Of a DNA stretch of 64,000 nucleotides, positions 10,444-11,858 are shown one piece after another. The stretch comes from an uncultured Coriobacteriaceae bacterium. GTDB taxonomy: Bacteria > Actinomycetota > Coriobacteriia > Coriobacteriales > Eggerthellaceae. Where the stretch lies: positions 308 to 64,307 of the forward strand of contig CACZAR010000004.1 in the NCBI GenBank assembly GCA_902779135.1, read 5' to 3'. Within the stretch, counting starts at the first letter, position 1; each line of letters begins with the position of its first letter. The position numbers were made by a program, and so were the translations under genes. The notes beneath the pieces were generated by a model, which did no database searches, had not been told where the DNA came from, and was given only the letters and a program-made list of their open reading frames with translations.

Positions 10444-11061
10444 ATGAATATGGCACAACAATACCGGAAATGGTATAGTTGTGCCATGTCTTATTACGAT
10501 GACATATACGAGCACGCTGTGGACAACTACTACCTGATCTCGACGCGCGACGCAATGCGGATGGGCGTGCCGAGCGTCGAGCTTGCCAAGCTAGCTCACA
10601 GGGGCAAGCTCGAGCACGTCTCCCACGGACTTTACCGGCTCGCCCGCTACGTTCCGCACCAGAACGACCCGTACGCGATATCCGTCGCGCGCGTCGGGGA
10701 AGGCGCCTACCTGTACGGTGAGTCGGTGATAGCGATGCTGGACCTCGCGCCGACGAATCCAGCCCGCATCTACGTGGCCACCCCCCGGAGGTACCGGGGC
10801 GAGAAGCCGGATGGTCTCGTGGTCGTCGTCAGGGATAGGGGAGCCGACACGACCGCCTACGAGGGCGTTCCTTCCCAGGAAATCGGCGCGGCGATAATAT
10901 CGTGCTTGAGCAAGCTGATGACAGAGCGTCTTCGCGAGGCGGCAGACAGAGCCCGCGAGGAAGGCTATTTGACCCGCAAAAGATACGAAGAGACGCTGGG
11001 GGCGATAGAGCATTATGAAGGGCAGAGCGAGTCGGGGTCAGAAGATGTAGCGTTTAGGTGA
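10444..11061 (+). CDS. AbiEi-like (type IV TA antitoxin family) wHTH domain protein
   Basis: N-terminal pattern LISTRDAMRMGVPSVELAKLAHRGKLEHVSHGLYRL followed by ...AYLYGESVIAMLDL... matches the AbiEi_4-type fold pattern. Start is ambiguous (ATG at 10444, 10450 or 10486). Confidence 0.6.
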   Translation: MNMAQQYRKWYSCAMSYYDDIYEHAVDNYYLISTRDAMRMGVPSVELAKLAHRGKLEHVSHGLYRLARYVPHQNDPYAISVARVGEGAYLYGESVIAMLDLAPTNPARIYVATPRRYRGEKPDGLVVVVRDRGADTTAYEGVPSQEIGAAIISCLSKLMTERLREAADRAREEGYLTRKRYEETLGAIEHYEGQSESGSEDVAFR

Positions 11062-11111
11062 CAACTCCTGATGACCTTCCAATATAAAGTCGTATATGGT
11101 ATAAAAAAGTT

Positions 11112-11170
11112 GGTGGCTCGATAGGGCTACCTCCAAGCGCCGGGGGCTGTCCCCCGGCAACTTTTTTATT
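11112..11170 (+). ncRNA. candidate structured leader/small RNA, copy 2
   Basis: TGgTATAAA -10 (11097..11105), then 6 nt to GGTGGC. Hairpin 1 is GGTGGC-8 nt-GCTACC. Hairpin 2 is GCCGGGGG-ctgt-CCCCCGGC followed by aaCTTTTTTATT. Confidence 0.45.
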
Positions 11171-11183
11171 AGGGGGTGTTTTG

Positions 11184-11858
11184 GTGCGCGAGATATCCGT
11201 TTTCGCGGATGAGAGTGGCGACAAAACGGAGAAGACGAGATATTTCCTGCTGACGCTTGTCTTTCACGACCAAGCAGCCAGCATTGCCGAGCAGGTCGCC
11301 ATCTACGAAAGATCCCTCGCGACCGCCGACCTGCCGAACATCCCGTTTCATTCAGAGCCTCTCCTCAACGGCCATGGCGACTACAGGTACTTGGAGCCGG
11401 AGCAACGAAAGAAGCTCCTGTCGGGATTTGCTGCGCTCGTGCGCTATCTACCAGTCGAGTACGTGACGTTCGTGTACAAGCGCCGAGAATTCACAGGCCC
11501 CGAAAAGCTCGCCGAGAGGATGAAGAGGGACATCGCGGATTTTCTTAGGGAGCACCTCGGCTACTTCCAGGAATTCGATCATGTAAAGGTCTATTACGAC
11601 AACGCTCAGGCAATAGTGAAGAGCGCCCTTTACAATGCAGTGTACGATGTCCTGGCGAAGCAGGCTGTCGTGAGGAGGCGCACGACGATGACCGAGTACC
11701 GCCTGTCTCAAGTGGCGGATTTCCTGTGCACCATCGAGCTTGCTGCCGTGAAGTACGATGCCAAAGAGGACGGCGGCACCTACGACAAGTTCTTCGGCGG
11801 CGTCGGCACGTTCAAGAAGAACTGGCTGAAGCAGGCCAGGCGCAAGCGCATGAAGTAG
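11184..11858 (+). CDS. DUF3800-like protein
   Basis: N-terminal VFADESGDK...YFLLTLVF (the DESG motif characteristic of DUF3800). About 224 aa. AGGGGG RBS lies 7 nt before the GTG at 11184. Confidence 0.6.
   Translation: MREISVFADESGDKTEKTRYFLLTLVFHDQAASIAEQVAIYERSLATADLPNIPFHSEPLLNGHGDYRYLEPEQRKKLLSGFAALVRYLPVEYVTFVYKRREFTGPEKLAERMKRDIADFLREHLGYFQEFDHVKVYYDNAQAIVKSALYNAVYDVLAKQAVVRRRTTMTEYRLSQVADFLCTIELAAVKYDAKEDGGTYDKFFGGVGTFKKNWLKQARRKRMK

What the first reader, a model, noticed from the sequence alone, without database searches (positions are those of the whole stretch)
10444..11858. Non-canonical two-gene module: AbiEi-like wHTH protein followed by a DUF3800-like protein instead of an AbiEii nucleotidyltransferase
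At the attR-distal end of the island, set off by an AT-rich spacer, an AbiEi-type antitoxin-like protein is followed by a ~224-aa protein opening with the DUF3800 DESG motif (VFADESGDK). Canonical AbiE systems pair AbiEi with an overlapping AbiEii/DUF1814 nucleotidyltransferase gene. Here the partner belongs to a different, uncharacterised family. The two genes are 120 bp apart, and each has its own copy of the same promoter/structured-RNA element (next finding). The location, the antitoxin-like regulator and the unknown-function partner suggest an undescribed toxin-antitoxin or phage-defence pairing. I know of no described AbiEi-DUF3800 system.
Basis: inference. Interest (0 to 1): 0.8.

Follow-up and report, generated by a model that had tools for sequence, protein, structure and literature searches.

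The report
Orphan AbiEi beside sRNA-DUF3800 cassette
The two genes are real and correctly named, but they are most likely neighbours rather than partners: a leftover antitoxin gene that has lost its toxin sits next to a self-contained, widespread cassette made of a small RNA and an RNase H-like DUF3800 gene whose function is still unknown.

Summary
ORF 10444/10486..11061 is an AbiEi antitoxin-type wHTH protein. ORF 11184..11858 is a DUF3800 protein. No AbiEii gene is present, and each gene is preceded by a copy of one ~75-nt element.

The proposed AbiEi-DUF3800 system is not supported. Among 137 DUF3800 homologues with enough upstream DNA (55 distinct contexts), AbiEi lies upstream only in copies of this same island. 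DUF3800 relatives at 71-86% identity have unrelated neighbours. AbiEi relatives at 64-86% identity carry a canonical overlapping AbiEii. Homology to such a locus ends about 50 nt before the AbiEi stop codon, so this AbiEi is an orphan that lost its toxin gene.

The constant partner of DUF3800 is the upstream element: an extended -10 box, a covarying 5' hairpin, CCUCCAAG, and a GC hairpin terminator. It precedes nearly all relatives and is a divergent form of the known DUF3800-XI RNA (Weinberg 2017), which Rfam's model does not detect. The copy upstream of AbiEi is degenerate.

One caveat remains. Orphan AbiEi-type genes also flank distant DUF3800 cassettes in three other contexts (two phage contigs and one IS-disrupted locus). 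A loose, facultative link is therefore not excluded.

The parts
2833..2907 (+). tRNA-Val(GAC), the integration site of the island. Its last 45 nt (2863-2907) form the proximal att repeat.
   Evidence: ARAGORN and Rfam; direct repeat D1.
3010..3597 (-). Truncated tyrosine recombinase, C-terminal catalytic part only.
   Evidence: Pfam Phage_integrase 1.1e-06, profile positions 90-168 of 172.
10316..10391 (+). Copy 1 of the DUF3800-XI-like RNA element. It is degenerate: the GC stem has a mismatch (GCCGAGGG), the linker reads CCUCUAAG instead of CCUCCAAG, and the U-run is broken.
   Evidence: Model R1 scores 65.1 bits with one marked non-standard pair in the GC stem. It is the only non-standard pair at columns 55-67 among 26 sequences. 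The terminator scan does not call it.
10452..10485 (.). 14-6-14 palindrome GGCACAACAATACC-N6-GGTATAGTTGTGCC, the probable AbiEi operator. It overlaps an extended -10 and abuts ATG 10486, which suggests a leaderless mRNA.
   Evidence: The two arms are the only matches with 0 or 1 mismatches in the window. A promoter-like site lies at 10450-10479. The palindrome is conserved in the canonical AbiE locus L086.
10486..11061 (+). Orphan abiEi, an AbiE-type wHTH antitoxin/regulator.
   Evidence: DNA homology to the AbiEi+AbiEii locus L086 runs from 10451 to 11009 and then stops.
11096..11170 (+). Copy 2 of the element: extended -10 TGGTATAAA, 5' hairpin GGUGGC/GCUACC, linker CCUCCAAG, and a GC hairpin plus U-run. 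It is a predicted ~60-nt sRNA or leader of the DUF3800-XI class.
   Evidence: R1 scores 87.6 bits. It is conserved upstream of nearly all relatives, with covariation in hairpin 1.
11139..11158 (+). Intrinsic terminator hairpin (8 G-C pairs) followed by AACUUUUUUA.
   Evidence: Terminator scan.
11184..11858 (+). DUF3800 gene encoding a predicted RNase H2-like fold. It has the DE motif (D9, E10), YYDN (D139) and QxxD (Q176-D179).
   Evidence: Pfam; alignments A1 and A4; AlphaFold2 model with pLDDT 80.7; Foldseek top hits are RNase HII.
12036..12080 (.). Distal att repeat, a 45-nt copy of the tRNA-Val 3' end that marks the end of the ~9.2-kb island.
   Evidence: Direct repeat D1.

Best explanation
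These are two independent units that happen to lie side by side at the cargo end of a tRNA-Val island.

(1) abiEi is a relic of a canonical AbiE (type IV TA / abortive infection) locus whose AbiEii nucleotidyltransferase gene has been lost. It keeps its own promoter and operator: a palindrome overlapping an extended -10 directly before the start codon. It is probably still an autorepressed wHTH protein. It may be decaying, or it may be kept as a stand-alone antitoxin or regulator.

(2) The DUF3800 gene is part of a compact, autonomous cassette of about 760 bp. An extended -10 promoter drives a ~60-nt structured RNA of the DUF3800-XI class, which ends at a strong intrinsic terminator. Only read-through transcripts reach the Shine-Dalgarno sequence and the DUF3800 ORF. 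The RNA is therefore made in large excess over the RNase H2-like protein, and presumably controls or partners it.

Shown here: the family assignments, the loss of AbiEii, the cassette boundaries, the RNA-DUF3800 linkage, and the lack of AbiEi-DUF3800 linkage. Inferred: autorepression, terminator read-through, and any nuclease or defence role.
For: Lack of AbiEi-DUF3800 linkage:
- Of 80 species-representative genomes with a DUF3800 homologue (50-99% identity), only L001 and L002 have AbiEi, by tblastn and by profile search. Both are the same island at 98-99% DNA identity, including its dmsABC-like operon.
- 137 homologues with at least 900 nt of upstream DNA fall into 55 upstream contexts. Exactly one of these has an upstream AbiEi of the window's type; one more, the phage contig L229, has an upstream AbiEi of another subtype.
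- DUF3800 relatives at 86, 85 and 71% identity are preceded by an IS transposase, an LRR protein in a prophage tail region, and unrelated divergent genes.
- AbiEi relatives at 86, 78 and 64% identity are followed by AbiEii PF08843.
- DNA homology to L086 ends at 11009, and no AbiEii remnant is present.
- The AbiEi palindrome occurs only at its own gene.

Cassette boundaries and RNA-DUF3800 linkage:
- Homology between the window and three other contexts (L088, L089, L081) begins sharply at 11093-11095 and ends at 11851.
- An exact 16-nt core of the element lies upstream of DUF3800 in 75 of 85 loci.
- A protein-independent DNA search of metagenomes found 133 element copies. Of these, 95 are followed within 200 nt by DUF3800 and none by AbiEi.
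- Hairpin 1 covaries: 4 of 6 pairs change on both sides, 96.7% of cells are paired, and 0 of 500 shuffles reach the observed value.
- Model R1 also detects the Rfam DUF3800-XI sites upstream of homologues at 28-45% identity, and finds nothing in canonical AbiE loci.
- No Pfam family recurs in more than 2 of 147 neighbour clusters, so DUF3800 has no conserved protein partner.

Literature: DUF3800 genes associate with 11 RNA motifs, several ending in terminators (PMC5737381). The RNase H2-like fold is reported in PMC7736814 and PMC10910872.
Against: Orphan AbiEi-family genes, with no AbiEii nearby, also flank distant DUF3800 cassettes.
- L229: AbiEi, then the RNA, then DUF3800, then a convergent second AbiEi (PADLOC 1e-31 and 2e-36).
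- L226: DUF3800 followed by a convergent AbiEi (1.8e-38).
- L157: a DUF3800 remnant, an IS110, then AbiEi (3e-64).

AbiEi is the commonest PADLOC family among the neighbour clusters (4 of 147), which is more than a genome-wide background would give. I could not compute a proper background rate for accessory regions. PADLOC and Pfam summaries list only the top 25 families, so further divergent AbiEi neighbours could have been missed. No expression or toxicity data exist.
Confidence: 0.68

Rival explanations
1. There is a facultative functional link. An orphan AbiEi acts as an accessory regulator or antitoxin for the sRNA/DUF3800 cassette, with DUF3800 taking the place of AbiEii as the effector. 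This would be an optional third component rather than an obligate pair.
For: Four independent contexts place an AbiEii-less AbiEi within one gene of DUF3800, and the AbiEi genes belong to four different subtypes (the window; L229, twice; L226; L157). In the window and in L229 the order and strand are the same: AbiEi, then the RNA, then DUF3800. AbiEi is the most frequent PADLOC family among neighbours. In the window the cassette begins 32 nt after the AbiEi stop codon, where AbiEii would normally be.
Against: About 50 of 55 contexts have no AbiEi. The orientation is convergent in L226 and for the second AbiEi in L229, and an IS separates the genes in L157. None of six AbiEi lineages examined has a DUF3800 neighbour. 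One of them, at 63% identity to the L226 AbiEi, is an orphan beside an integrase, so orphan AbiEi genes occur without DUF3800. No AbiEi operator lies at the DUF3800 promoter. DUF3800 neighbourhoods are generally rich in defence and mobile-element genes, which alone raises the chance of meeting AbiEi.
Confidence: 0.17
2. The upstream element is purely a cis-acting leader, either a transcription attenuator or a translational lock (the CCUCC linker pairing with the Shine-Dalgarno sequence). It would not be a separate RNA partner, and the copy in front of AbiEi would serve as AbiEi's promoter and leader. The two genes would then share a regulatory logic.
For: The element lies on the same strand, 13-60 nt upstream of the start codon, in almost all loci. 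The terminator hairpin is followed by the SD. The linker CCUCCAAG is complementary to the GGAGG/GGGGG SD sequences (read directly). Copy 1's weakened terminator would allow read-through into abiEi.
Against: Stand-alone copies with their own -10 box and terminator exist without any downstream gene, and in inverted orientation (L068 5515-5580 and 5680-5745; L077 7180-7250, facing a convergent gene). AbiEi has its own promoter and operator about 60 nt downstream of copy 1, and canonical AbiE loci lack the element. Copy 1 departs from three otherwise near-invariant features.
Confidence: 0.1
3. The adjacency is a recent assembly or annotation artefact, or one of the genes is a pseudogene.
For: AbiEi has a 14-residue C-terminal tail not found in its relatives, located just past the homology breakpoint.
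Against: The same arrangement is present at 98-99% identity in two independent MAGs. The two proteins' 90%-identity clusters hold many member sequences from public data (117 for AbiEi; 61 and 26 for near-identical DUF3800). Both ORFs are intact, and the DUF3800 keeps every residue that is invariant in its family.
Confidence: 0.03

Closest known systems
AbiE type IV toxin-antitoxin / abortive-infection system (AbiEi wHTH antitoxin plus AbiEii DUF1814/PF08843 nucleotidyltransferase)
   Same: The first gene is a full-length AbiEi (PADLOC 3.5e-53). It has an inverted-repeat operator at its promoter. Its relatives at 64-86% identity sit in canonical AbiEi-AbiEii pairs.
   Different: There is no AbiEii in the window. 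Homology to a canonical locus stops about 50 nt before the AbiEi stop codon. The downstream gene is unrelated, is not overlapping, and has its own promoter.
DUF3800-XI RNA motif (Rfam RF02975) and the other DUF3800-associated RNAs (Weinberg et al. 2017, PMC5737381)
   Same: A small RNA with a 5' hairpin, a short linker and a GC-rich terminator hairpin lies on the same strand just upstream of a ~224-aa DUF3800 gene. My model of the window-type element detects the RF02975 sites, and intermediates exist (L248, L214, L231).
   Different: RF02975 does not detect the window element, even at E<=10. The hairpin-1 sequence differs, and the conserved linker CCUCCAAG is specific to this Coriobacteriia/Actinomycetes lineage.
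Type III toxin-antitoxin loci (ToxIN, CptIN, TenpIN) (from general knowledge)
   Same: The gene order is the same: promoter, small RNA, intrinsic terminator, then the protein gene. RNA should therefore greatly exceed protein. The loci are carried on mobile elements and prophages.
   Different: The RNA is a single unit, not a tandem repeat array. The protein has a predicted RNase H-like fold, not the ToxN/AbiQ fold. No toxicity has been shown.
Retron type VII (RT plus DUF3800) and Cas12a2-associated TPR-DUF3800 (PMC7736814, PMC10910872)
   Same: The same Pfam domain is involved, with an RNase H2-like predicted fold, and it is linked to a non-coding RNA and to defence contexts.
   Different: There is no reverse transcriptase, Cas12 or TPR domain here (island ORFs). 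No PADLOC model matches this DUF3800.

Membership tests
AbiE (type IV TA / Abi) system | AbiEi: N-terminal winged-helix domain of the AbiEi family | tested here: met
   Pfam AbiEi_4 scores 40.6 bits against a cutoff of 25. PADLOC AbiEi PDLC02228 gives 3.5e-53 over residues 13-197.
AbiE (type IV TA / Abi) system | Adjacent, usually overlapping, AbiEii (DUF1814/PF08843) nucleotidyltransferase toxin gene | tested here: not met
   tblastn with two AbiEii queries from related loci finds nothing in the window (best E 0.27). The downstream ORF is DUF3800.
AbiE (type IV TA / Abi) system | Inverted repeats in the promoter for AbiEi autorepression | tested here: inconclusive
   A 14-6-14 palindrome at 10452-10485 overlaps a -10-like box and is conserved in L086. 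Binding was not tested.
AbiE (type IV TA / Abi) system | Toxicity of the partner neutralised by AbiEi; phage resistance | not testable with these tools
   This needs expression and phage assays.
DUF3800 (PF12686) | Profile score above Pfam's gathering threshold | tested here: met
   26.6 bits against a cutoff of 21, residues 6-183. Many homologues carry precomputed PF12686 hits.
DUF3800 (PF12686) | N-terminal DE motif and C-terminal QxxD motif (as described in PMC7736814) | tested here: met
   D9, E10 and Q176 are invariant in both alignments A1 and A4. D179 is invariant in A4 and conserved in at least 90% of A1 sequences (Q176-V-A-D179).
DUF3800 (PF12686) | RNase H (type 2)-like fold | tested here: inconclusive
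   The AlphaFold2 model has pLDDT 80.7 and pTM 0.83. The top Foldseek PDB hits are RNase HII (probability 1.0), but TM-scores are only 0.36-0.39. This agrees with PMC7736814 and PMC10910872.
DUF3800-XI RNA (RF02975) | Score at or above the Rfam gathering threshold | tested here: not met
   No RF02975 hit in 10200-11300 even at E<=10. The same search finds RF02975 at 44.7-70.6 bits upstream of the viral homologues.
DUF3800-XI RNA (RF02975) | Position and architecture: same strand, immediately upstream of a DUF3800 ORF; a 5' hairpin, a linker and a GC terminator hairpin | tested here: met
   Model R1 links the two forms through intermediates.
Type III TA (ToxIN-like) | Antitoxin RNA made of tandem direct repeats that the toxin processes | tested here: not met
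   There is a single unit per cassette. The two window copies are 780 nt apart with abiEi between them.
Retron type VII | Reverse transcriptase gene and msr/msd RNA next to DUF3800 | tested here: not met
   The larger island ORFs that match Pfam are an integrase remnant, HxlR, DmsABC-like proteins, AbiEi and DUF3800; none matches a reverse transcriptase. Two ORFs, 3446..4492 and 4768..5193, have no Pfam match. No PADLOC retron model matches this DUF3800.

The most novel reading that the evidence does not exclude
The sRNA/DUF3800 cassette is a self-contained toxin-antitoxin-like or anti-phage module. A ~60-nt DUF3800-XI-class RNA, made in excess through a terminator, restrains or guides an RNase H2-like nuclease. 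Orphan AbiEi-type wHTH proteins are recurrent, optional third components that tune the module or act as antitoxins for it, which would explain their presence beside it in Coriobacteriia islands and in phage moron regions.
Probability: 0.12. Interest if true: 0.75.

Novelty: new member of a known kind. Interest (0 to 1): 0.35.

Why it matters
As it stands, this corrects a tempting over-interpretation. The locus is not a new AbiE-like system. It is an orphan antitoxin gene next to a cassette of a known but unexplained kind.

The useful by-products concern the cassette. The window carries a Coriobacteriia/Actinomycetes variant of the DUF3800-XI RNA that Rfam's model misses. The variant has clear covariation, sharply defined cassette borders and stand-alone copies. 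It travels through islands, prophages and defence-rich regions.

The function of the DUF3800-plus-RNA pairing has been an open question since 2017. This lineage is abundant in human and animal gut Collinsella and Eggerthellaceae, and it offers a compact ~760-bp unit to test. The weak recurrence of orphan AbiEi genes beside it is a lead, not a result.

Tried and rejected
- Rfam at gathering threshold on the whole window and on 11 related loci found only tRNAs. Rfam at E<=10 on 10200-11300 found nothing relevant.
- An exact-loop DNA pattern found nothing in viral contigs. The variable-loop version found one, probably chance, hit.
- AbiEi patterns found nothing in viral contigs.
- tblastn of a low-GC DUF3800 homologue against GenBank phages (query from L229) and PLSDB plasmids (query from L220) gave one hit each, which was no use for a neighbourhood survey. 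A second viral scan with a low-GC alignment returned almost the same contigs.
- hhalign of single sequences against my AbiEi alignment could not recognise the L229 AbiEi proteins, so I dropped it as a screen. Iterated HMM searches from five AbiEi subtypes found no further neighbours.
- An apparently conserved upstream 'ORF cluster' in Collinsella loci turned out to be overlapping frames of a frameshifted Xis-like HTH gene, not a partner.
- I considered the element as terminal repeats of a transposon. I rejected this because flanking copies are direct rather than inverted, and most cassettes have a single copy.
- The look-up of the Slackia AbiEi (P0129) failed because the protein is not on record.
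Full report
**What is in the sequence.** The two ORFs are real, and both lie on the + strand.

The first ORF (10444..11061) matches Pfam AbiEi_4 (40.6 bits, cutoff 25). It matches PADLOC AbiEi models over almost its whole length (PDLC02228, 3.5e-53).

Its homologues are 177-192 aa and begin at the residue that corresponds to ATG 10486. 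Directly before that ATG lies a 14-6-14 palindrome (10452-10485). Its arms are the only matches with 0 or 1 mismatches in the window. The palindrome contains a TG-extended -10-like box and is conserved in a canonical AbiE locus. I therefore read the gene as 10486..11061, probably leaderless, with its own operator.

The second ORF (GTG 11184..11858, 224 aa) passes Pfam's DUF3800 threshold (26.6 bits, cutoff 21). It has no PADLOC match.

No AbiEii is detectable in the window.

**The island.** The module lies inside a ~9.2-kb island bounded by tRNA-Val (2833-2907) and a 45-nt repeat of its 3' end at 12036-12080. The island carries:
- a truncated integrase (3010-3597);
- an HxlR regulator;
- a DmsABC-like oxidoreductase operon.

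G+C in the body of the island is about 0.58-0.66, against about 0.5 in the flanks. The module sits at the end of the island far from the integrase, 178 nt from the distal repeat.

**Is the pair recurrent?** The DUF3800 protein belongs to a tight family of ~224-aa stand-alone proteins. It had 606 hits, mostly from Collinsella, Eggerthellaceae, Atopobiaceae and Varibaculum.

In 80 species-representative genomes with a homologue (50-99% identity), AbiEi is adjacent only in L001 and L002. This holds by tblastn and with a profile built from 120 AbiEi homologues. Those two loci are the same island at 98-99% DNA identity, oxidoreductase operon included, so they are not independent.

After adding metagenomic and viral loci, 137 homologues have at least 900 nt of upstream sequence. 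They fall into 55 distinct upstream contexts.

The nearest DUF3800 relatives have unrelated upstream neighbours:
- at 86% identity, an IS transposase inserted into the upstream element;
- at 85%, an LRR protein in a prophage tail region;
- at 71%, divergent unknown genes.

AbiEi relatives at 86, 78 and 64% identity are each followed by AbiEii (PF08843); in the 86% locus the two genes overlap.

DNA homology between the window and one such locus runs from 10451 to 11009. It stops about 50 nt before the AbiEi stop codon, after which AbiEi carries a tail its relatives lack. This AbiEi is therefore an orphan of a canonical AbiE lineage.

**What DUF3800 is really linked to.** The ~75-nt element in front of DUF3800 (11096-11170) is conserved upstream of nearly every relative. 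It consists of:
- an extended -10 box (TGGTATAAA);
- a 5' hairpin;
- the invariant linker CCUCCAAG;
- a GC hairpin, GCCGGGGG...CCCCCGGC;
- a U-run.

The hairpin plus U-run qualifies as an intrinsic terminator.

Hairpin 1 changes sequence while keeping its pairing. Four of its 6 pairs change on both sides, 96.7% of cells are paired, and 0 of 500 shuffles reach the observed value. Versions with the 3' partner slid by one to three columns score much lower.

A protein-independent DNA search of metagenome contigs found 133 copies. Of these, 95 are followed within 200 nt by a DUF3800 ORF. About a dozen more are tandem upstream copies or precede frameshifted genes. None is followed by AbiEi.

Stand-alone copies, with their own -10 box and terminator and sometimes inverted, also exist.

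Homology between the window and three other contexts starts sharply at 11093-11095 and ends at 11851. This defines a cassette of about 760 bp.

**Relation to known RNAs.** Weinberg et al. (PMC5737381) reported eleven RNA motifs, DUF3800-I to -XI, near DUF3800 genes. Several end in terminators, and none has a known function.

Rfam finds none of them in the window, even at E<=10. It does find DUF3800-XI (RF02975) 20-80 nt upstream of the 28-35%-identical homologues on viral contigs.

DUF3800-XI has the same layout as the window element: a 5' hairpin, a short linker, a GGCGGGG...CCCCGCC terminator and a U-run. L214 is an intermediate that carries UCCAAG and GCCGGGGG.

A covariance model built from the window-type element scores both window copies (87.6 and 65.1 bits). 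It then scores, in a graded series, exactly the DUF3800-XI positions in the viral loci (L248 6.6e-11, L214 1.9e-6, L231 7e-5, L219 3e-3, and so on). It finds nothing in canonical AbiE loci. The element is therefore a divergent lineage of the DUF3800-XI class.

**The copy upstream of abiEi.** Copy 1 (10316-10391) is degenerate in three ways:
- it has the only broken pair in the otherwise invariant GC stem;
- its linker reads CCUCUAAG;
- its U-run is interrupted.

Tandem element copies upstream of DUF3800 occur in other lineages. The simplest history is that the abiEi fragment came to lie between two copies.

**The protein.** The AlphaFold2 model is confident (pLDDT 80.7, pTM 0.83). Its best PDB matches are archaeal RNase HII, followed by PIWI, RuvC and other RNase H-fold proteins, though TM-scores are low (0.36-0.39).

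D9, E10, D139 (in YYDN) and Q176 are invariant across both the close and the distant alignments. D179, the last residue of the QxxD motif (Q176-D179), is invariant in the distant alignment and conserved in at least 90% of the close one. This matches the DE and QxxD motifs and the RNase H2-like assignment made for retron type VII DUF3800 (PMC7736814). It also matches the Cas12a2-associated TPR-DUF3800 (PMC10910872).

**How it most likely works.**
- Inference: abiEi is an autorepressed, leaderless, orphan wHTH gene. This follows established AbiEi biology, in which AbiEi binds inverted repeats in its own promoter.
- Inference from the anatomy: the cassette's promoter makes a ~60-nt RNA that usually ends at the terminator. 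Rare read-through yields DUF3800 mRNA, so RNA greatly exceeds protein, as in type III TA loci.
- Inference: the RNA either restrains or partners the RNase H-like protein.
- Not shown: any nuclease, toxin or defence activity.

**The caveat.** AbiEi is a very diverse family, and my first screens only saw the window's subtype. PADLOC scans of neighbours revealed AbiEii-less AbiEi genes of other subtypes beside distant DUF3800 cassettes:
- L229, a phage contig: AbiEi, then DUF3800-XI, then DUF3800, then a convergent second AbiEi;
- L226, a phage contig: DUF3800 followed by a convergent AbiEi, set between structural genes;
- L157: a DUF3800 remnant, an IS110, then AbiEi.

Among 147 neighbour clusters, no Pfam family occurs in more than two. 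AbiEi is the commonest PADLOC family, with four clusters.

Several points weigh against a functional link:
- Relatives of the L226 AbiEi at 77-78% identity have a normal overlapping AbiEii.
- A relative at 63% identity is an orphan beside an integrase with no DUF3800, so orphan AbiEi genes are not unusual on mobile elements.
- The orientations differ between the cases.
- DUF3800 neighbourhoods are generally rich in defence and mobile-element genes, including PglX, DrmMI, SduA, GmrSD, TIR and SLATT.

I rate a facultative functional link at roughly 0.15-0.2.

**Verdict.**
- Observation: confirmed.
- Interpretation as a new AbiEi-DUF3800 system: not supported beyond a weak lead.
- What is there: an orphan AbiEi next to a new, Rfam-invisible member of the known DUF3800-XI RNA plus DUF3800 cassette class.
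- Interest: moderate to low for the finding as framed (0.35). The cassette itself remains an attractive unsolved problem.

Noticed in passing
window 11096-11170 and 10316-10391; loci L003-L085, L094-L213: The element is a Coriobacteriia/Actinomycetes variant of the DUF3800-XI RNA that Rfam 15 does not detect. Hairpin 1 covaries, the linker CCUCCAAG is invariant, and the GC terminator stem is almost invariant. Alignment A2 and model R1 could seed an Rfam update.
   Followed up: yes
L068 5515-5580 (inverted), 5680-5745; L077 7180-7250; about 10 metagenome loci: Stand-alone copies of the element exist, each with its own -10 box and terminator but no DUF3800 downstream. Some are inverted or face a convergent gene. 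This suggests a trans-acting small RNA gene rather than only a leader.
   Followed up: partly
L081 3031-3090 and 4960-5000: An IS (DDE_Tnp_1 transposase, 3214-4545) has inserted inside the element's terminator hairpin, upstream of a DUF3800 homologue 86% identical to the window's. The insertion splits the RNA from the gene.
   Followed up: partly
window 12138-12482 (+): Just outside the island lies a 114-aa ORF with a Nif11 leader domain (1.7e-06), a GG motif and a Cys-rich C-terminal core (…EAVNGGILFSDCTWDDCGDVDCKLCKGLSK). It looks like a Nif11-type RiPP precursor. A 404-aa membrane protein follows it (ABC_trans_CmpB domain, 12915-14129).
   Followed up: no
L001 3970-4029 and 7575-7626; L088 1026-1118: In related genomes the tRNA-Val 3' repeat occurs more than once, and a further integrase follows the DUF3800 cassette. 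This suggests that islands are stacked in tandem at tRNA-Val, with the DUF3800 cassette repeatedly lying at an island end.
   Followed up: partly
window 3010-3597 (-) and 3446-4492 (+): The island's integrase is only a C-terminal fragment (194 aa). It overlaps a 348-aa ORF on the opposite strand that has no Pfam match. The island may no longer be able to excise.
   Followed up: no
window 5340-9760: The island's main cargo is an HxlR-type regulator plus a TAT-exported molybdopterin oxidoreductase with its 4Fe-4S and DmsC-like anchor subunits. This is a respiratory reductase operon carried on a tRNA island.
   Followed up: no
L016 5520-5690 and about 29 Collinsella loci: Upstream of the DUF3800 cassette in many Collinsella genomes lies a small Xis/AlpA-like HTH gene. 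In L016 it is readable only across a frameshift (MTVIKMQEYMRASRNKAYDLIWSGE / IDSYRLGRKLLVSRASVDAYI).
   Followed up: partly
L109 6110-6420 (downstream of an element copy): One element copy is followed not by DUF3800 but by a Phd/YefM-like antitoxin ORF (MTLMPTVKPISDLQRNLGAIAEECHETRSPIYLTKNG…). I named the family by eye only.
   Followed up: no
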